Source: a virus
Direction: 5' to 3' (one strand)
Virus record (IMG/VR): IMGVR_UViG_3300045988_084160
Span: 1-37,009 of that record
Length of the DNA stretch: 37,009 nt
In this document: piece after piece, positions 31,909 through 36,928 of the stretch
How the letters are laid out: each line of letters starts with the position of its first letter
Position numbering within the stretch: the first letter of the stretch is position 1
Position numbers and translations under genes: made by a program
The notes under the pieces: model-generated
Told to the model about the DNA's origin: nothing
Database searches by the model: none
What the model saw: only the letters and a program-made list of their open reading frames with translations

Positions 31909-33363
31909 TTAGTCGTTAATATAAAAATACATCAACAATGCCCCACCTTTTTTATCATATACAATTTTATCAACAACACTGGTCAAAGCGTCATGCTTTT
32001 GTCTGTCAGTTGAATTGTCTGATTTAATAATATCGTATGCGGAGCGTATTTTGTTCAAAAGAATGCTTTCATTTTCATCTTCAGGCTTCTTTGAGTACTG
32101 CTCCAGCATTGCGGTTAATTGTTCACGTTCCCTTTGTAATATTTCTTTATTTGCTTTGTATTCTTCAAGCGTATCAATTCCATCTCTATATGCTTCTTTA
32201 ATACGTTCTTCCTTCATACCTATTCTGTTTAATTTATTTTCAATTAATTCGCTTTCTGATTTTTCTTCCTGATTTGTAGAATGTACAACATATTCTACTG
32301 TGCCACTATCAAGAACCTTCTGCAAGGCTTCCAAAATGGCAGGTTTAAGAGCATTTTCATTTGTAAGGTGCGATTCGTTGCAGGAAGCGTGATTGTATGC
32401 TGTACATTGAAAATATGTATTGCCTGATTTACTTTTACCGGCTCTGACAAGTCGACCACCGCAGGCGGAACACACAAGAAGTCCTGACAACCAATGTTTG
32501 TATGTTGATGCCGGTCTTACTTTTTTACCGGGTCTGTTTGTTGCTTTATCTCTTTCCTGTGCAGCAGTAAACAATTCGTTAGATATAAATGTATCATGTC
32601 CACCATCAGTAACAATCCATTCAGATTTATCTTTGACGTTTCGTGTAGCGTGTTCTAATCTGTTCCATATTATTTTACCATTGTAAAATTCATTTCTAAT
32701 AATGTAAGCTACTGTTCTGTTTTGGAACTTTCCGTTTCTTTTAGTTCTATATCCAAGAGCATTTAATTTGACGGCAATATCAAAAAATGACATTTTATCA
32801 TCTACATACCATGTAAATATCTTTTTTACTATTTCTGCCTGCTCAGGTACAATTACAGGTATTCCATCCTGCATTTTATATCCAAGTGGTGGGGCAGCGT
32901 TATAACCGCCTCTGGATGCTCTTTCAGTCATTCCACGCATTACCTCGCCTGAAAGGTTGATAGAATAGTATTCGTCCATCCATTCAAATATACGCTGTAC
33001 TAATTCACCGATAAAACCATCAGGGATAGGTTCTGACACCGAAACAACGTCAACGTCAGCTTTTTTGAGTAGATTCTTATAAACTATAGCTTCTTCCTGA
33101 TTACGTGCAAAACGGCTGAATTTCCACACAAGAATAATGTCTATAGGATGTTCATCGCTTTTGGCCATTGCTATAAGCTCCTGAAAAGCAGGACGGTTGT
33201 TTGCCTTTCTTCCAGAAATGCCATCATCCTGAAAAATGAATTGCTTTGGTATTATTATGTTATTTTTCTTTGCGTATTCAAGACCAAGACGTATCTGTGC
33301 ATCAGGAGAATATTCTACCTGGTCGTCTGTTGAAACTCTGACATATAATGCTCCTGTCTTCAT
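31909..33363 (-). CDS. int: Large serine recombinase (integrase)
   Basis: N-terminal resolvase motif ALYVRVSTDDQ, a recombinase domain, the zinc ribbon CSACGG...C...C, and a C-terminal coiled coil. Confidence 0.9.
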   Translation of the reverse strand: MKTGALYVRVSTDDQVEYSPDAQIRLGLEYAKKNNIIIPKQFIFQDDGISGRKANNRPAFQELIAMAKSDEHPIDIILVWKFSRFARNQEEAIVYKNLLKKADVDVVSVSEPIPDGFIGELVQRIFEWMDEYYSINLSGEVMRGMTERASRGGYNAAPPLGYKMQDGIPVIVPEQAEIVKKIFTWYVDDKMSFFDIAVKLNALGYRTKRNGKFQNRTVAYIIRNEFYNGKIIWNRLEHATRNVKDKSEWIVTDGGHDTFISNELFTAAQERDKATNRPGKKVRPASTYKHWLSGLLVCSACGGRLVRAGKSKSGNTYFQCTAYNHASCNESHLTNENALKPAILEALQKVLDSGTVEYVVHSTNQEEKSESELIENKLNRIGMKEERIKEAYRDGIDTLEEYKANKEILQREREQLTAMLEQYSKKPEDENESILLNKIRSAYDIIKSDNSTDRQKHDALTSVVDKIVYDKKGGALLMYFYIND

Positions 33364-33448
33364 ATTTCATCACTCCTTTATGTATTTTATGAAAAAAGGG
33401 TATAAAAATAACACCTAGCCTAAGAACAACAGTTCTGATTGACCGGGT

Positions 33449-33507
33449 GCTCCAAAGAATGATAAAATACAACTTGTCTAGGGTGGTATTTAATATCGCT
33501 TTGGAGC
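33449..33507. other. Candidate attP: 59-bp imperfect dyad
   Basis: Outer arms GCTCCAAAG / CTTTGGAGC are perfect. Inner arms share GATA..AAATAC.AC, giving about 20 of 25 symmetric positions per half-site. Lies 86 nt upstream of int. Confidence 0.35.
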
Positions 33508-33574
33508 TGGTCCTAGTGGCTGGCTCTTTTTTAGTATATTGACAAAAATTGCTAATTGAGGTGTATGTTTGCTG

Positions 33575-33602
33575 ATGTTTCCGACATTAATGTCGGAAAC
33601 AT
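33575..33602. repeat. Perfect 28-bp palindrome ATGTTTCCGACATTAATGTCGGAAACAT followed by GTATTTTTT
   Basis: Read directly. Could be a plus-sense terminator or a protein-binding site. Confidence 0.6.
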
Positions 33603-33669
33603 GTATTTTTTCAATTTCATAAATAAAGTTTTTTTGAAACTTTTTATTAAATGTGTCTGTCTATTTAAC

Positions 33670-33687
33670 CCCCTCGAATTCGAGGGG
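33670..33687. repeat. Perfect 18-bp palindrome CCCCTCGAATTCGAGGGG abutting the -35 box of the small-RNA promoter
   Basis: Read directly. It ends 1 nt before TTGACT. Confidence 0.6.
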
Positions 33688-33688
33688 A

Positions 33689-33716
33689 TTGACTAAAACC
33701 TCTGATTTGATATAAT
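33689..33716 (+). promoter_or_regulatory. Strong promoter TTGACT-16 nt-TATAAT with an extended -10 (TGATATAAT)
   Basis: Read directly. Points toward the 3' end of the 29-aa peptide gene. Confidence 0.65.
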
Positions 33717-33722
33717 ATACTT

Positions 33723-33820
33723 AACAAGAGAACCGAAAGCTAGACGAAACCTAGCCGCCGGCAAATAAGTGTTAAAAAATAGTGCCTTACTTTACCAGAG
33801 CAGGGGCACTATTTTTTGTG
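33723..33820 (+). ncRNA. Candidate antitoxin small RNA (~100 nt), convergent with the 29-aa peptide gene
   Basis: Bounded by the promoter and a shared terminator, with no ORF. Contains GCAAATAAGT (33761-33770) and CGAAAGC (33734-33740), complementary to peptide codons 6-11 (33868-33882). Confidence 0.45.
33774..33817. terminator. Bidirectional intrinsic terminator
   Basis: 13-bp stem AAAAAATAGTGCC / GGCACTATTTTTT. The A-run and T-run arms give a U-tract in either direction. Overlaps the last three codons and the stop of the peptide gene. Confidence 0.7.
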
Positions 33821-33898
33821 TGAGAAATAAGTAATAACAAGAGCTATCACACTGCACAACATTGTCACGAAAGCAAATAAGTCGCTATATGTAACCAT
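33809..33898 (-). CDS. 29-aa hydrophobic peptide, type I toxin / Hol-Tox-like (MVTYSDLFAFVTMLCSVIALVITYFSHKK)
   Basis: GAAAGGGG SD 9 nt upstream of the ATG. One transmembrane helix plus a C-terminal KK. Resembles the small holin-like toxin peptides of Firmicutes. Not in the ORF track. Confidence 0.55.
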   Translation of the reverse strand: MVTYSDLFAFVTMLCSVIALVITYFSHKK

Positions 33899-33969
33899 TG
33901 GCACCAACCCCTTTCTTTTGTAAAGTCCGGCAGTTGGAATGTCGCCCCTTCGGTTCTCCGGGTAAGTAT

Positions 33970-33998
33970 ATTATATTTTCAAAGTGTAGATTAAGGTA
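33970..33998 (-). promoter_or_regulatory. Weak promoter for the peptide mRNA (TATAAT -10, poor -35)
   Basis: The -10 box and first ~45 transcribed nt are an inverted copy of the small-RNA promoter/leader (33711-33761 versus 33927-33975). Confidence 0.4.
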
Positions 33999-34016
33999 AA
34001 ACTTAAATCATAAAAC

Positions 34017-34784
34017 TTATTTGCTTAATTCTAAAATGTAATCATTTCTTTTACTCCATAAAACAGGAACAATTGAATATTCCTTTAATGCACTTAGAGC
34101 TTCTTTGGAAATTGGTTTTTCGAAATCCTGAATAAATGTGTATAATTGCGATTTGTTTTTTCTTTCTTCGACAGTATCAGTCCAAGAGAAAATTATATTT
34201 TTAGCCTGCGTTGTATCAAAATTATTAATAACTTTAATAATGCGTTCAGGAGCAACATTTGATTTACCAATACCAAAATCATAATTACTCATTAGTTTGC
34301 TTTTTCCACTAAAAGAAACATTTTCAATATAACGAATATTATTAATGTCAAGAAAATTTTGCACATCCTCAATAAAAATAGATTTAACATTTTTACGTGA
34401 TAAGTAAAACATATCGCTAACTTTTATAATACATTGAGATAACATATGTTTTGATTGAGCTAGAGAATCACGGGAACATGTTATATATAATTCGTCATTT
34501 TTAGAAAAAGAAACTCCATGAGCTGCCAAGATAGAATCAAAAATTTCTCTTCTTCTGGTACCAGTAAAAATGTCAAATTGTGATAACTTTAACTCATTTA
34601 TTGTTTCAGAATCATCTGTAATATAATAGCGTTCATCATCTAACAGTTTTATAAAAAGTTCTATACAATCATTATTTCTATCTAGAAATGGTAAAGTTAA
34701 TCGATACACAGTATCTGAAATTTTGTATTGCTCAATATTTTCATTTAACCAATTAATATATATTTTTTTAAAATCTTTTTCCAT
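34017..34784 (-). CDS. 255-aa protein, DUF1828-like N-terminus and DUF1829-like C-terminus, function unknown
   Basis: YRLTLPFLDRNNDCIELFIK...ITDD resembles DUF1828 (recalled, not verified). The start is coupled to the upstream stop (TAA-T-ATG). AAGGTG RBS. Confidence 0.6.
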   Translation of the reverse strand: MEKDFKKIYINWLNENIEQYKISDTVYRLTLPFLDRNNDCIELFIKLLDDERYYITDDSETINELKLSQFDIFTGTRRREIFDSILAAHGVSFSKNDELYITCSRDSLAQSKHMLSQCIIKVSDMFYLSRKNVKSIFIEDVQNFLDINNIRYIENVSFSGKSKLMSNYDFGIGKSNVAPERIIKVINNFDTTQAKNIIFSWTDTVEERKNKSQLYTFIQDFEKPISKEALSALKEYSIVPVLWSKRNDYILELSK

Positions 34785-34785
34785 A

Positions 34786-35232
34786 TTAAATCACACCTTG
34801 TATATTCGAATCATTAATTGATATGTTACAATATTTACAAAAATCAAAAAAGATTGTAGTAAAATCATTTGAATTCTTAAACAGTATAGCATCTATTTCA
34901 TTTAATTCATATGCCCAAGACATTCCGTAACCTTCTTTGAAAATATGCATATGATTTCTGGAAAGTTTTTTCCCATCAGGATTTATATGTGGTCTGCCGT
35001 CAATTTCTAATCTGATCATTAAATCGTTATTTGGAATTAATCTTTCCTGTAATTTTTTTCGGCTTAGCACTATGGTATTTTTCCTGCAAATATCTAGAGA
35101 AAAAGTTTCTTTGGAATTAATAGCTCCTACAGGTATACATATTTCCTCATTCATGCCAGGAAGAATTAAGCTATTAAGTAAAATATGTTTATCTAGTTTC
35201 ATTAAGTTATTAAATTCTTCATTTGTTTTCAT
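34786..35232 (-). CDS. 148-aa His-rich protein of unknown function
   Basis: ATG 35232 lies 5 nt after AAAGGAG (the track ORF starts 15 codons earlier). Core RLEIDGRPHINPDGKKLSRNHMHIFKEGYGMSWA. I faintly recall a DUF (possibly DUF6978) with this core; unverified. Confidence 0.6.
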   Translation of the reverse strand: MKTNEEFNNLMKLDKHILLNSLILPGMNEEICIPVGAINSKETFSLDICRKNTIVLSRKKLQERLIPNNDLMIRLEIDGRPHINPDGKKLSRNHMHIFKEGYGMSWAYELNEIDAILFKNSNDFTTIFFDFCKYCNISINDSNIQGVI

Positions 35233-35260
35233 AAAATCTCCTTTATTCGGTTTTAGTATA

Positions 35261-35461
35261 TTAATCTTCCGGTTCAATTAATTCTTCCATAGTACAATTC
35301 AAAGCTTTGGCTAGTTTGTATACTGTAATGGCAGATGCTTTATTTATATTTCGCTCTCCACTTTCATATTTAGTTATAAGAGAACGACTTACACCGCTTA
35401 GCTGAATTAATTGGTTCTGGCTTAAATTCTTTTCTTTTCGTATATTTTGCAGATTACTCAT
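35261..35461 (-). CDS. 66-aa XRE-family HTH regulator
   Basis: IRKEKNLSQNQLIQLSGVSRSLITKYESGERN is a classic HTH_3 motif. Confidence 0.8.
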   Translation of the reverse strand: MSNLQNIRKEKNLSQNQLIQLSGVSRSLITKYESGERNINKASAITVYKLAKALNCTMEELIEPED

Positions 35462-35541
35462 ATTAGTTGTCCTTCCAATGTTTTAAAAGTTGTAATGAGC
35501 TGTCTTCTCAATAGCTCCAACGCTCATTTCCGCTTTTGATA

Positions 35542-36195
35542 TTAAAATTTCCCACGTAGCTCTACAACCTTACCTATGATTTTAACAGGCTTTTCCTGAA
35601 TTTCCTTATTTGAAAAATACATAGGGTCGTAATTTGGGTTGTTGGATATAAGAACAATACCATCGTTATATTTTTTTAATCGCTTGCATGTAGCTTCATC
35701 ACCGTTAACAGTTGCGATAACTATATCACCATCTTCTGCATCGGATTGCTGACGAACGATAACAACATCGTTTTCACACATTCTAGGCTCCATAGAATTA
35801 CCTTTTAGCTTTAGACCGAAGAATGTACCGCTTGATGCAAGTTCTTCTGTTATTTCCTCTGTGTCAATAATATCTTCTATAGCTTCTATTGGAATACCGG
35901 CAGCAACACGACCAAGTACCGGAATGCGAATGCCAGTAGATTTCTTTGTTGATGAATTATCTTCATGTTGCTCAAATTCAAATGTTTCATCATCAAACCA
36001 ATAAGAAGTATTTACTTTAAATGCTGCTGAAAAAGCACTTAATTTACTTTGGGGTAAATCAACTAGACCTTTTTCTATTTTCGCAATAGATGTTTTGTCT
36101 TTATAGCCAACTTTCAAGGCTAATTCAGTTTGAGATAATCCACATGTTTCACGTAAATTTTTAATTTTTAAACCAATCTTTTGCTGTAGAGTCAT
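35542..36195 (-). CDS. CI-type prophage repressor: XRE HTH plus LexA-like S24 autopeptidase
   Basis: N-terminal LRETCGLSQTELALKVGY..KTSIAKIEKG. C-terminal GRVAAGIPIEA (Ala-Gly cleavage context), GNSMEP (Ser) and CKRL (Lys). Confidence 0.9.
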   Translation of the reverse strand: MTLQQKIGLKIKNLRETCGLSQTELALKVGYKDKTSIAKIEKGLVDLPQSKLSAFSAAFKVNTSYWFDDETFEFEQHEDNSSTKKSTGIRIPVLGRVAAGIPIEAIEDIIDTEEITEELASSGTFFGLKLKGNSMEPRMCENDVVIVRQQSDAEDGDIVIATVNGDEATCKRLKKYNDGIVLISNNPNYDPMYFSNKEIQEKPVKIIGKVVELRGKF

Positions 36196-36230
36196 TTAAT
36201 TCACCAACCTTTACTTTATAACTTGTAATA

Positions 36231-36259
36231 AGTGTAACATAACAAAGAATTAAATTCAA
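36231..36259 (-). promoter_or_regulatory. Leftward (repressor) promoter TTGAAT-17 nt-TACACT
   Basis: Read on the minus strand. The -35 box overlaps an ATTCAAC half-site. Confidence 0.45.
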
Positions 36260-36276
36260 CTTTTTTGTGAAAAATA

Positions 36277-36293
36277 GTTGACACATATTCAAC
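36277..36293. promoter_or_regulatory. Operator GTTGACACATATTCAAC overlapping the -35 box and spacer of the rightward promoter
   Basis: GTTGA-N7-TCAAC dyad. Confidence 0.55.
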
Positions 36294-36306
36294 AAAGTGC
36301 TATTCT
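36278..36306 (+). promoter_or_regulatory. Rightward early promoter TTGACA-17 nt-TATTCT (TGC-extended)
   Basis: Read directly. Divergent from the repressor promoter. Confidence 0.6.
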
Positions 36307-36314
36307 ATATTTAG

Positions 36315-36331
36315 GTTGAATGACATTCAAC
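36315..36331. promoter_or_regulatory. Operator GTTGAATGACATTCAAC just downstream of the rightward -10 box
   Basis: Core of the perfect 19-bp palindrome GGTTGAATGACATTCAACC (36314..36332). Confidence 0.6.
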
Positions 36332-36358
36332 CAGCAAACGAAGAAAGGAGGAAATAAC

Positions 36359-36478
36359 TTGAAGATATTTGATAATATCGATAAGGAAACAAAAAAGTCT
36401 ATCAAAGATACCCTGATAAGTGCTTTGATAGACCTGTTGGTAGGAATAATCCTATTAGCAATTGATAGGCTGTTCTAG
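36359..36478 (+). CDS. 39-aa peptide with a hydrophobic C-terminal helix (first ORF of the rightward transcript)
   Basis: TTG start 7 nt after AAGGAGG. Sequence MKIFDNIDKETKKSIKDTLISALIDLLVGIILLAIDRLF. Not in the ORF track. Confidence 0.35.
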   Translation: MKIFDNIDKETKKSIKDTLISALIDLLVGIILLAIDRLF

Positions 36479-36485
36479 CCAGCCG

Positions 36486-36505
36486 GCAGGGGCGAAAGCC
36501 CTTGC
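36486..36505 (+). terminator. GAAA-tetraloop hairpin (weak terminator or RNA stability element)
   Basis: GCAGGGGC-GAAA-GCCCTTGC with only TTAATT downstream. Confidence 0.35.
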
Positions 36506-36665
36506 TTAATTCAGATATTATCATATCCAAAAGTAAATGTAAATATGATTAGATTCTTAGGAGTGTACTTCATATGTATAGGTGTGGCTAAATTAGCATA
36601 TACACTTTATTTGAGGTACAAGAAAAAGCTGGACTAACGGCTATACGGGGTTGATTATTGGAATG

Positions 36666-36695
36666 GGAACATCTATGTTGCAGCATAGGTGTTCC
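36666..36695. promoter_or_regulatory. 30-bp dyad GGAACATCTATG-ttgcag-CATAGGTGTTCC upstream of the Cro-like gene
   Basis: 12-bp arms with one mismatch (a G:U wobble if folded as RNA). Overlaps a possible TTGATT(36651)-17 nt-TATGTT(36674) promoter. Confidence 0.45.
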
Positions 36696-36721
36696 TAATT
36701 AAGAGATAAGGAGATGATAGA

Positions 36722-36928
36722 GTGACAGATAGTGAAGCATTAAATAAGGTTATAGAAAATTCTGGATTAAAATTAACGTTTATAGCACGTGCATTAAAGT
36801 TAAGTAGAGAAGGGTTTTATAAAAAACTTAATAACCAAACTGAATTTAAAGCAAGTGAAATTGTGAAAATGCAGGAAATTCTTAATTTATCAAATGAACA
36901 AAGAGATAAAATTTTTTTTGCAAATTAA
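36722..36928 (+). CDS. 68-aa HTH protein, Cro analogue by position
   Basis: GTG start after AAGGAG. LKLTFIARALKLSREGFYKKLNN is HTH-like. The last 18 nt lie inside the terminal repeat. Confidence 0.55.
   Translation: MTDSEALNKVIENSGLKLTFIARALKLSREGFYKKLNNQTEFKASEIVKMQEILNLSNEQRDKIFFAN

What the first reader, a model, noticed from the sequence alone, without database searches (positions are those of the whole stretch)
34017..35461. Three-gene AT-rich cassette (XRE HTH, 148 aa, 255 aa) between the CI repressor and the integrase: candidate undescribed prophage-borne defence, exclusion or toxin-antitoxin module
Three tightly packed minus-strand genes lie directly downstream of the LexA-like CI repressor and in the same orientation.
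- A 66-aa XRE HTH.
- A 148-aa protein with a His-rich core, RLEIDGRPHINPDG-x6-NHMHIFKEGYG-x-WA.
- A 255-aa protein whose two halves resemble the uncharacterised DUF1828 and DUF1829 domains.

The last two genes are translationally coupled (TAA-T-ATG). Only a leaky-looking hairpin separates the cassette from cI, so it should be expressed in the lysogen. The stretch is visibly more AT-rich than the neighbouring phage genes. It also occupies the int-to-repressor gap, where temperate phages typically carry lysogen-expressed immunity or defence cargo (rexAB/sieB logic).

I recognise no enzymatic signature and know of no characterised system with this composition.
Basis: partly seen in the sequence, partly recalled or inferred. 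Interest (0 to 1): 0.8.

Follow-up and report, generated by a model that had tools for sequence, protein, structure and literature searches.

The report
Prophage two-gene candidate defence module (PDC-M24)
Between the repressor and the integrase, this gut-bacterium prophage carries a tightly linked gene pair that is already listed as an untested candidate anti-phage system (PADLOC PDC-M24); its mechanism is unknown, and one of the two proteins has a predicted fold with no detectable structural relative.

Summary
The three minus-strand ORFs are real: a 66-aa XRE HTH, a 148-aa protein and a 255-aa protein. They form the most AT-rich stretch of the window.

The system is not undescribed. The 148-aa protein is Pfam DUF6978 and matches PADLOC PDC-M24A. 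The 255-aa protein is DUF1828+DUF1829 and matches PDC-M24B. PDC-M24 is one of 145 untested "phage defence candidates".

- **Linkage:** the two genes are near-obligately linked, in 112 of 114 testable loci found from A and 29 of 30 found from B. This holds across bacteria and archaea. They are usually separated by -4 to +1 nt and are co-inherited (Mantel r 0.92).
- **Position:** in temperate phages, including S. aureus phage 37 and Lactobacillus Lj965, the pair sits just upstream of the integrase.
- **HTH:** it is a lineage-specific addition, not a conserved component.
- **Structure:** the DUF1829 half models as a PD-(D/E)xK-like domain. DUF6978 models confidently (pLDDT 95) but has no PDB or BFVD match, and it carries an invariant His cluster.
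- **Decay:** DUF6978 is found inactivated beside an intact partner far more often than the reverse (10 vs 1-2), which suggests it is the toxic effector.

Verdict: a real, ordinary-looking member of a catalogued but uncharacterised candidate defence/toxin-antitoxin family. Function is inferred, not shown.

The parts
35542..36195 (-). cI-like repressor (HTH_3 + Peptidase_S24). It is the first gene of the lysogenic transcription unit that most likely also carries the cassette.
   Evidence: Pfam HTH_3 9.1e-10 and Peptidase_S24 4.8e-33; phrog_4 transcriptional repressor 1.9e-39. In relatives L002/L004/L006/L008, homology to the window starts inside this gene at about 35965.
35485..35537 (-). Weak hairpin in the cI-HTH spacer; not an intrinsic terminator.
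   Evidence: RNA fold gives -15 kcal/mol, z -1.59, with no U tract. No terminator-like or promoter-like site lies here on the minus strand.
35261..35461 (-). 66-aa XRE-family HTH, a lineage-specific putative controller of the pair and not a conserved component.
   Evidence: HTH_3 7.6e-14; best PADLOC hit is the RM 'Control_protein' at 5.5e-9. It is present with the pair in the window lineage and, as other HTH proteins, in only 4 of 29 genome loci.
34786..35232 (-). Gene A: 148-aa DUF6978 protein (PDC-M24A), the putative effector/toxin, with an invariant His cluster.
   Evidence: Pfam DUF6978 1.4e-33; PDC-M24A 8.9e-36. In 124 sequences K15, H94 and H96 are invariant, and R74, H82, N84, P85, D86 and E100 are conserved at 90% or more. 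AF2 model pLDDT 95.3, pTM 0.90, mostly beta. No PDB match (best E 0.34) and no BFVD match (best E 0.059). A is preferentially found inactivated.
34017..34784 (-). Gene B: 255-aa DUF1828 + DUF1829 protein (PDC-M24B). It has an N-terminal beta-rich domain with the PFLDRNND and TDDG motifs, and a C-terminal PD-(D/E)xK-like domain. Putative nucleic-acid-binding sensor/antitoxin, or alternatively a nuclease.
   Evidence: Pfam hits; PDC-M24B 2.5e-84; phrog_5059 2e-68. AF2 model pLDDT 88.5 with an alpha-beta-beta-beta-alpha-beta core at residues 134-218. Foldseek PDB top hits are VC1899, Card1, Cdn1, Bax1, R2 RLE, MspJI and EndoMS. Conserved residues are listed.
34782..34788 (-). A-stop/B-start junction, TAA-T-ATG.
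   Evidence: Read directly from the sequence. Across 103 pairs the spacing is -4 (26), -1 (21), 0 (18) or +1 (6), and 92% lie within -30..+15 nt.
33809..33898 (-). Neighbouring 29-aa hydrophobic peptide ORF (MVTYSDLFAFVTMLCSVIALVITYFSHKK), possibly a type I toxin. It is not part of the pair.
   Evidence: Sequence. Sub-threshold Pfam Hol_Tox hit, E 0.046. Conserved, with amino-acid variants in L046 and L162. A convergent + strand promoter-like site lies at 33689-33716.
31909..33363 (-). Large serine recombinase (prophage integrase) that bounds the slot.
   Evidence: Resolvase 4.1e-28, Recombinase 1.9e-24, Zn_ribbon_recom 3e-8.

Best explanation
The conserved unit is a two-gene module: A (DUF6978) and B (DUF1828-DUF1829). 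It is a member of the catalogued but untested PADLOC candidate defence system PDC-M24. Here it is carried as lysogeny-module cargo of a Lachnospiraceae/Eubacterium prophage.

**Proposed mechanism (inferred, not shown)**
- The module is co-transcribed with cI in the lysogen.
- A and B are made in fixed ratio through translational coupling and form a complex.
- A is the toxic effector: a small, mostly-beta enzyme whose invariant His82/His94/His96 with Asp86/Glu100 suggest a metal or acid-base active site.
- B is the restraining and sensing partner. Its nuclease-like DUF1829 domain binds nucleic acid.
- On superinfection, B releases or activates A. This aborts the infection or destroys phage or host nucleic acid.
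- The 66-aa HTH is a phage-lineage-specific controller of expression, comparable to C proteins of restriction-modification systems.

**Shown:** family membership, gene linkage, genomic position, fold predictions and decay asymmetry.
**Inferred:** expression in the lysogen, complex formation, which partner is toxic, and anti-phage activity.
For: **Membership**
- PDC-M24A 8.9e-36 and PDC-M24B 2.5e-84, near full length.
- PDCs are genes found embedded in BREX, DISARM or type I RM systems.

**Linkage**
- Found from B in species-level genomes: A is adjacent in 29 of 30 testable loci, including Bacteroides, Nitrospinota and methanogenic archaea.
- Found from A: 109 co-directional plus 3 convergent of 114 testable loci.
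- Spacing is mostly -4..+1 nt. Mirror-tree r = 0.92, Mantel 0/999.

**Context**
- An integrase lies within 3 kb in 30/37 viral, 13/31 genome and 28/75 metagenome loci. Both Tyr and Ser types occur.
- Other neighbours include AbiL/AriA/GajA/PtuA-like ATPases, type I REase and type III MTase/Res.
- In L037 the pair lies between methylase and Res genes.
- Cultured phages 37 and Lj965 show repressor ... A-B ... integrase; in Lj965 a superinfection-exclusion gene lies between B and the integrase.

**Composition and expression**
- AT-rich cargo signature.
- No terminator or promoter between cI and the cassette.

**Roles of A and B**
- A is defective beside an intact B in 10 non-identical loci, against 1-2 for the reverse. 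A is the shorter gene, so the binomial probability is about 1e-3.
- A DUF1829-containing protein, DS-6B, is the non-toxic partner of a HipA-like kinase. AlphaFold3 predicts that it binds DNA. The system is the experimentally validated defence system DS-6/HipAD (PMC13092281).
- One metagenome protein has an Abi_2 domain in place of A, fused to B.
- One has A fused to B.
Against: - No experiment exists for this family. [quoted passage not shown]
- Only about a fifth of genome loci have a recognisable defence gene within 2.2 kb.
- L052 carries an intact A with no B, which argues against strict toxicity of A alone.
- Some 'partial' A genes may be shorter functional variants or assembly errors.
- The A and B fusions are single metagenome contigs.
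- B could itself be the nuclease effector: D169 and E180 are largely conserved.
- Lysogenic expression and A-B complex formation were not tested.
Confidence: 0.5

Rival explanations
1. Reversed roles. B is the effector, a PD-(D/E)xK nuclease with an N-terminal sensing or DNA-binding domain, similar in layout to Card1, NucS or MspJI. A is its regulator, activator or specificity factor. The system cuts invading DNA directly, like a restriction enzyme, or after activation.
For: - Foldseek top hits of the B model are all nucleases with a PD-(D/E)xK domain: VC1899 3.2e-4, Card1 9.3e-4, Cdn1, Bax1, R2 RLE, MspJI, EndoMS.
- The model has an alpha-beta-beta-beta-alpha-beta core.
- D140, D169 and E180 are conserved down to archaeal homologues.
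Against: - No lysine is conserved at the canonical (D/E)xK position. K184 varies as K/R/Q/M/T, and E180 is lost in L020 and L034.
- TM-scores are low, 0.27-0.37.
- It is A, not B, that is preferentially found inactivated.
- DUF1829 in DS-6B is the non-toxic partner.
Confidence: 0.2
2. The pair is a toxin-antitoxin addiction module that stabilises the prophage or island, through post-segregational killing or retention of the integrated element. It has no anti-phage role.
For: - Tight two-gene operon with overlapping or abutting genes.
- Patchy distribution on mobile elements next to integrases.
- Asymmetric decay typical of toxin genes.
- A second putative TA element, the small hydrophobic peptide, lies next door.
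Against: - The pair also occurs away from integrases between housekeeping genes, and inside or next to RM systems in archaea and Nitrospinota.
- Many TA systems double as defence, so this rival is not exclusive.
Confidence: 0.15
3. The pair serves the phage's own life cycle. It could be an accessory of integration or excision, or of lysogeny control, which would explain its position just upstream of the integrase.
For: - The pair lies directly upstream of and co-directional with the integrase in most viral contigs and in phages 37 and Javan357.
Against: - It is found with both tyrosine and serine integrases.
- It is found in 18 of 31 genome loci without any integrase within 3 kb.
- It is found in archaeal chromosomes beside type I RM.
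- Close relatives of one phage lineage keep it while swapping immunity regions.
- It shows no similarity to known Xis/RDF families.
Confidence: 0.05

Closest known systems
PADLOC PDC-M24, a two-gene 'phage defence candidate' (Payne et al., guilt-by-embedding, bioRxiv 10.1101/2024.01.29.577857)
   Same: Both proteins match the PDC-M24A and PDC-M24B models over nearly their full length, and the genes are adjacent. Related loci sit inside or next to RM systems, as in the original discovery logic.
   Different: PDC-M24 is only a computational candidate with no reported test. Here the pair is prophage cargo with an extra upstream HTH, placed in the cI operon rather than embedded in an RM system.
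Lambda rexAB (and sieB-type lysogen-expressed exclusion genes)
   Same: The logic and position match: non-essential genes placed directly after cI in the same orientation, with no terminator in between. They would therefore be expressed in the lysogen.
   Different: There is no sequence relationship; no Rex model of PADLOC matched at E <= 1. The protein families are different, and there is no membrane protein.
DS-6 / HipAD defence system (DefensePredictor, PMC13092281)
   Same: It contains a DUF1829 domain in the non-kinase partner DS-6B, which is predicted to bind the toxin and DNA. It is an experimentally validated defence system.
   Different: Its toxin is a HipA-like kinase, not DUF6978. 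The partner is DUF3037+DUF1829, not DUF1828+DUF1829.
PD-(D/E)xK nucleases with an N-terminal sensor domain (Card1/Can2, VC1899, NucS/EndoMS, MspJI)
   Same: Two-domain layout with a C-terminal restriction-endonuclease-like core. These are the best structural matches of the B model.
   Different: Matches are marginal (E 3e-4 to 6e-2, TM 0.27-0.37). There is no canonical (D/E)xK lysine. The N-terminal DUF1828 domain is not assigned to CARF, SRA or any other known fold.
Ntox24 toxin domain (Zhang et al. 2012, PMC3482391)
   Same: It is all-beta with conserved His residues and is reported also in uncharacterised type II TA systems. It is the only recurrent secondary Pfam hit of DUF6978 members, in 6 of 124 with best E 0.0031.
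   Different: All hits are far below the Pfam threshold. None appeared for the window protein or for 10 further members tested. Homology is not established.

Membership tests
PADLOC PDC-M24 | A protein matches a PDC-M24A model | tested here: met
   PDLC04538 at 8.9e-36, residues 3-141 against profile 4-138/146.
PADLOC PDC-M24 | A protein matches a PDC-M24B model | tested here: met
   PDLC04539 at 2.5e-84, residues 3-253 against profile 5-253/255.
PADLOC PDC-M24 | The two genes are adjacent | tested here: met
   1-nt spacing on the same strand.
PADLOC PDC-M24 | Demonstrated protection against phage | not testable with these tools
   No report was found. PDCs are described as untested.
Pfam DUF6978 / DUF1828 / DUF1829 | Score above the Pfam gathering threshold | tested here: met
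   116.5 bits against a cut-off of 29.6; 79.4 against 22; 86 against 22.2.
PD-(D/E)xK nuclease superfamily (C-terminal half of B) | Alpha-beta-beta-beta-alpha-beta core fold | tested here: met
   Model elements H134-147, E153-159, E165-172, E180-186, H191-207 and E212-218, with pLDDT about 90.
PD-(D/E)xK nuclease superfamily (C-terminal half of B) | Significant structural match to solved members | tested here: inconclusive
   The top 15 PDB hits are nearly all such nucleases, but E is 3e-4 to 6e-2 and TM 0.27-0.37 on the whole two-domain model.
PD-(D/E)xK nuclease superfamily (C-terminal half of B) | Catalytic D ... (D/E)xK residues | tested here: inconclusive
   D169 is invariant or replaced by E. 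E180 is mostly conserved but lost in 2 of 16 distant homologues. There is no conserved Lys two residues after it; K184 is variable and K161 is nearly invariant.
Ntox24 (PF15529) | Pfam match at or above threshold | tested here: not met
   No hit for the window protein. 6 of 124 family members give sub-threshold hits, best E 0.0031. None of 10 further members tested individually gave a hit.
Type II toxin-antitoxin system | Two small adjacent co-oriented genes with coupled translation | tested here: met
   Spacing is -4 to +1 nt in most of 103 pairs.
Type II toxin-antitoxin system | One product is toxic and the other neutralises it | not testable with these tools
   Indirect evidence only: A is found broken beside an intact B in 10 loci, against 1-2 for the reverse. 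One locus has A without B.
Lambda RexAB | Sequence homology to RexA/RexB | tested here: not met
   No Rex model appears among PADLOC hits at E <= 1.
DS-6 / HipAD | HipA-like kinase plus a DUF3037-DUF1829 partner | tested here: not met
   Only the DUF1829 domain is shared. No kinase or DUF3037 hit was found.

The most novel reading that the evidence does not exclude
DUF6978 is the founding member of a new enzyme fold, a small His-cluster beta protein. It acts as the toxic effector of a widespread bacterial and archaeal two-gene immune system. A DUF1828/PD-(D/E)xK-like partner senses phage nucleic acid and gates the toxin. On this reading PDC-M24 is a mechanistically new abortive-infection system that temperate phages of gut Firmicutes, staphylococci, streptococci and lactobacilli carry in their integrase-proximal slot.
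Probability: 0.3. Interest if true: 0.7.

Novelty: new member of a known kind. Interest (0 to 1): 0.5.

Why it matters
If the pair is a working defence system, it would turn one of PADLOC's untested candidates into a characterised system with a likely new effector fold.

It would also explain a recurrent cargo slot of temperate phages of human-gut Clostridia, S. aureus (phage 37) and lactobacilli (Lj965). That bears on phage therapy, dairy phage resistance and prophage-mediated competition.

The cultured phages found here give direct experimental handles.

If it is only an addiction module, it is an ordinary finding.

Tried and rejected
**Searches that found nothing or little**
- Megablast of the region against 50,697 phage records: no match.
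- tblastn of A against phages at 1e-5: no match. A profile nevertheless finds A-like ORFs next to B in phage 37, Lj965 and Javan357.
- Sequence-profile searches of both families against PDB sequences. Nothing for A. Only a chance-level VgrG hit for B.
- NCBIfam: no family for A or B.
- PHROGs: only unknown-function families.
- Rfam on 33300-36800: only chance-level snoRNA hits.

**Ntox24 lead**
- I scanned 10 further family members individually and found none of the sub-threshold hits.
- Without Ntox24 sequences, no profile-profile test was possible. It remains a lead only.

**Technical limits**
- Locus search with the deep A alignment failed because no stretch was conserved enough. I repeated it with a narrower alignment.

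**Readings considered and rejected**
- *The HTH as a conserved third component:* rejected.
- *The pair as an integrase accessory:* rejected on distribution.
- *A cupin-like reading of the G-x6-HxH-x3-E motif in A:* considered from memory, but not supported by any fold match.
Full report
**1. What is in the sequence**

Four minus-strand genes lie in a row:
- 35542-36195: a cI-like repressor (HTH_3 9.1e-10, Peptidase_S24 4.8e-33).
- 35261-35461: a 66-aa XRE HTH (HTH_3 7.6e-14).
- 34786-35232: a 148-aa protein, called A here.
- 34017-34784: a 255-aa protein, called B here.

About 650 bp further on lies a large serine recombinase at 31909-33363 (Resolvase, Recombinase, Zn_ribbon_recom).

- A has an AAAGGAG site 5 nt before its ATG, and its homologues align from that ATG.
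- The A stop and B start read TAA-T-ATG.
- The cassette has 27.2% GC against 34.7% for the window, which is the lowest 0.3% of equal-length windows (profile).
- The cI-HTH spacer has only a weak hairpin (-15 kcal/mol, z -1.59, no U tract). The pattern scan finds no terminator-like or promoter-like site there on the minus strand.
- Co-transcription with cI is therefore plausible but not shown.

**2. Family assignment**

- A is Pfam DUF6978 (1.4e-33, full length). B is DUF1828 (2.5e-22) plus DUF1829 (2.5e-24).
- Against PADLOC-DB v2, A matches PDC-M24A (8.9e-36) and B matches PDC-M24B (2.5e-84), both over nearly the whole profile.
- PDCs are 145 untested 'phage defence candidates'. They were derived from genes embedded in BREX, DISARM and type I RM systems and added to PADLOC (bioRxiv 10.1101/2024.01.29.577857).
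- 'PDC-M24' appears in no searchable paper.
- DUF6978 and DUF1828 appear only incidentally in S. aureus papers.
- NCBIfam has no model for A or B, and PHROGs gives only unknown-function families.

The system is therefore not undescribed. It is catalogued, but it is uncharacterised.

**3. Are the genes a unit?**

*Loci found from B.* I started from B in one genome per GTDB species (31 loci).
- A is adjacent in all but L013, which has a degraded remnant, and L025, which lies at a contig edge.
- The distant Phycisphaerales locus L040 has a remote A-like ORF (E 7e-7). The total is 29 of 30 testable loci.
- Taxa include Clostridia, Bacteroides, Phascolarctobacterium, Neobacillus, Turicibacter, Nitrospinota, Methanocorpusculum and a Methanobacteriota MAG.

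*Loci found from A.* I started from A in metagenome and viral contigs (122 loci).
- B is immediately downstream and co-directional in 109, convergent in 3, absent in 2 and untestable in 8.

*Coupling and co-inheritance.*
- In 103 co-directional pairs the A-stop to B-start spacing is -4 (26), -1 (21), 0 (18) or +1 (6). 92% lie within -30..+15 nt.
- Pairwise distances of A and B across 72 unique pairs correlate at r = 0.92, with Mantel 0 of 999 permutations. The two genes are inherited as a unit.

*The HTH.*
- It is not part of the unit. 17 of 29 genome loci have no HTH within 2.5 kb.
- Only the window's own phage lineage and L009, L019, L028 and L029 have a co-directional HTH within 120 bp.

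**4. Where the pair sits**

- An integrase lies within 3 kb in 30 of 37 viral contigs, 13 of 31 genome loci and 28 of 75 metagenome loci. It is mostly directly downstream and co-directional, and both tyrosine and serine types occur.
- Cultured phages show the same order:
  - S. aureus phage 37: repressor ... ORF031 (DUF6978, E 9e-25) - ORF014 (DUF1828) - integrase.
  - L. johnsonii prophage Lj965: regulator - metalloprotease - Ljo_0292 (DUF6978, 4.8e-27) - Ljo_0291 - hypothetical protein - superinfection exclusion - integrase.
  - Streptococcus satellite Javan357: an unannotated A ORF before B and the integrase.
- Other neighbours within 2.2 kb include AAA_21/AAA_15 ATPases that match AbiLi, AriA, GajA and PtuA models, type I restriction R subunits (archaeal loci L035 and L036), and type III methylase and Res genes. 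In L037 the pair lies between methylase and Res genes.
- In several genomes the pair sits alone between housekeeping genes.
- Within the window's phage lineage, relatives L002, L004, L006 and L008 share the C-terminal half of cI, the HTH, A and B at 97-99% identity. They differ upstream of about 35965, so the immunity specificity varies while the cargo is kept.
- The identical A protein is annotated in Lachnospiraceae bacterium NSJ-171 and Eubacterium sp., and was seen on 877 contigs.

**5. Structure and residues**

*B.*
- The model has pLDDT 88.5 and pTM 0.55, with two domains.
- Residues 134-218 form an alpha-beta-beta-beta-alpha-beta unit.
- The best PDB matches are VC1899 (3.2e-4), Card1 (9.3e-4), Cdn1, Bax1, the R2 restriction-like endonuclease, MspJI and EndoMS. 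All of these contain PD-(D/E)xK nuclease domains, but TM-scores are low at 0.27-0.37.
- Down to 29-39% identical archaeal and Nitrospinota homologues, the conserved positions are PFLDRNND (32-39), TDD (56-58), K112-H113, Q117, D124, D140, G160-K161-S162, D169 (E in the archaeal copies), P179-E180-R181, N187, W201 and D203.
- K184 is variable, and E180 is lost in two homologues. The fold is nuclease-like, but a canonical active site is not evident.

*A.*
- The model is very confident (pLDDT 95.3, pTM 0.90) and mostly beta.
- Foldseek finds nothing in PDB (best E 0.34, TM below 0.31) or in BFVD (best E 0.059).
- The sequence profile finds nothing in PDB.
- In 124 sequences K15, H94 and H96 are invariant. 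R74, H82, N84, P85, D86, E100 and A107 are conserved at 90% or more.
- H82 starts an NPDG beta-hairpin, and H94-x-H96 lie on the next strand. That arrangement would suit a metal or acid-base catalytic site; this is inference.
- The only recurrent secondary Pfam hit in the family is Ntox24, in 6 of 124 members with best E 0.0031.
- Ntox24 is an all-beta, His-bearing predicted RNase toxin also reported in uncharacterised TA systems (PMC3482391).
- I could not confirm this lead.

**6. Which partner does what**

Three indirect lines point to A as the costly or toxic effector and B as the restraining or sensing partner.
- **Decay asymmetry.** Among 124 non-identical loci, A is split or truncated beside a full-length B in 10. 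The reverse is seen in 1-2: L052 lacks B, and L040 is merely too distant for the profile. A is the shorter gene, so the binomial probability is about 1e-3.
- **Precedent.** In the validated DS-6/HipAD system, the DUF1829-containing protein is the non-toxic partner of a HipA-like kinase, and AlphaFold3 predicts that it binds DNA (PMC13092281).
- **Domain swap.** One metagenome protein has an Abi_2 domain in the position of A, joined to B from residue 26. Another is a full A-B fusion.

Caveats:
- The fusions are single contigs.
- Some 'partial' A genes may be functional or may be assembly artefacts.
- L052 carries an intact A next to a Fic gene without B.

**7. Verdict**

- The feature is real.
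- It is a member of the catalogued candidate system PDC-M24, placed as lysogeny-module cargo.
- The most likely function is a lysogen-expressed toxin/sensor defence or TA module, with A as effector. I give the explanation as stated a confidence of about 0.5; anti-phage activity is untested.
- The main rival is that B is the nuclease effector.
- The family is uncharacterised, is widespread in bacteria and archaea, and contains a protein with no detectable structural relative. It is therefore a reasonable experimental target.
- The finding itself is a new member of a known (candidate) kind rather than a new kind.

Noticed in passing
window 33809-33898 (-), with a + strand promoter-like site at 33689-33716 and a hairpin at about 33771-33810: A 29-aa hydrophobic peptide ORF (MVTYSDLFAFVTMLCSVIALVITYFSHKK) with a ribosome-binding site lies between B and the integrase. 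It gives a sub-threshold Pfam Hol_Tox hit (E 0.046). It is conserved in relatives, with amino-acid variants in L046 and in an unrelated phage, L162. A strong convergent promoter-like site (11/12, TG) and a hairpin flanked by A and T runs suggest a type I toxin plus antisense RNA arrangement.
   Followed up: partly
window 33548-33687: A 140-bp stretch is present in the window and in L002 but missing from six close relatives. The two + strand terminator-like hairpins at 33503-33527 and 33575-33602 lie at its left edge: the first just outside it, the second inside. Its nature is unknown (small insertion or deletion).
   Followed up: no
window about 35965 (inside cI), compared with L002, L004, L006 and L008: This is a mosaic breakpoint. 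Relatives share the S24 half of cI plus HTH-A-B at 97-99% identity, but have different cI N-terminal and operator regions and repressors of 209-270 aa. The immunity type is swapped while the cargo is kept.
   Followed up: partly
L041 (P0113) and L042 (P0056): These are single metagenome contigs. One encodes an Abi_2-DUF1828-DUF1829 protein (438 aa) and the other a DUF6978-DUF1828-DUF1829 fusion (410 aa). Either could be a real fusion or an assembly artefact.
   Followed up: partly
L052 1081-2337: An intact DUF6978 gene lies directly after a Fic-domain gene (HPFQDGNGRTGR motif) and an ImmA-like gene. No DUF1828/1829 gene follows; chromosomal transporter genes follow instead.
   Followed up: no
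L035 and L036 (archaeal), L037 (Nitrospinota): In two methanogen-lineage genomes the pair lies between an OLD/AbiL-like ATPase pair and a type I restriction R subunit. In the Nitrospinota MAG it lies between DNA methylase and Res helicase genes, an embedded arrangement.
   Followed up: partly
window 34192-34219 (-): A strong sigma-70-like site (TTGATA-16-TATAAT, 11/12) lies inside the 3' part of gene B and points towards the small peptide ORF. In such AT-rich DNA it may be chance.
   Followed up: no
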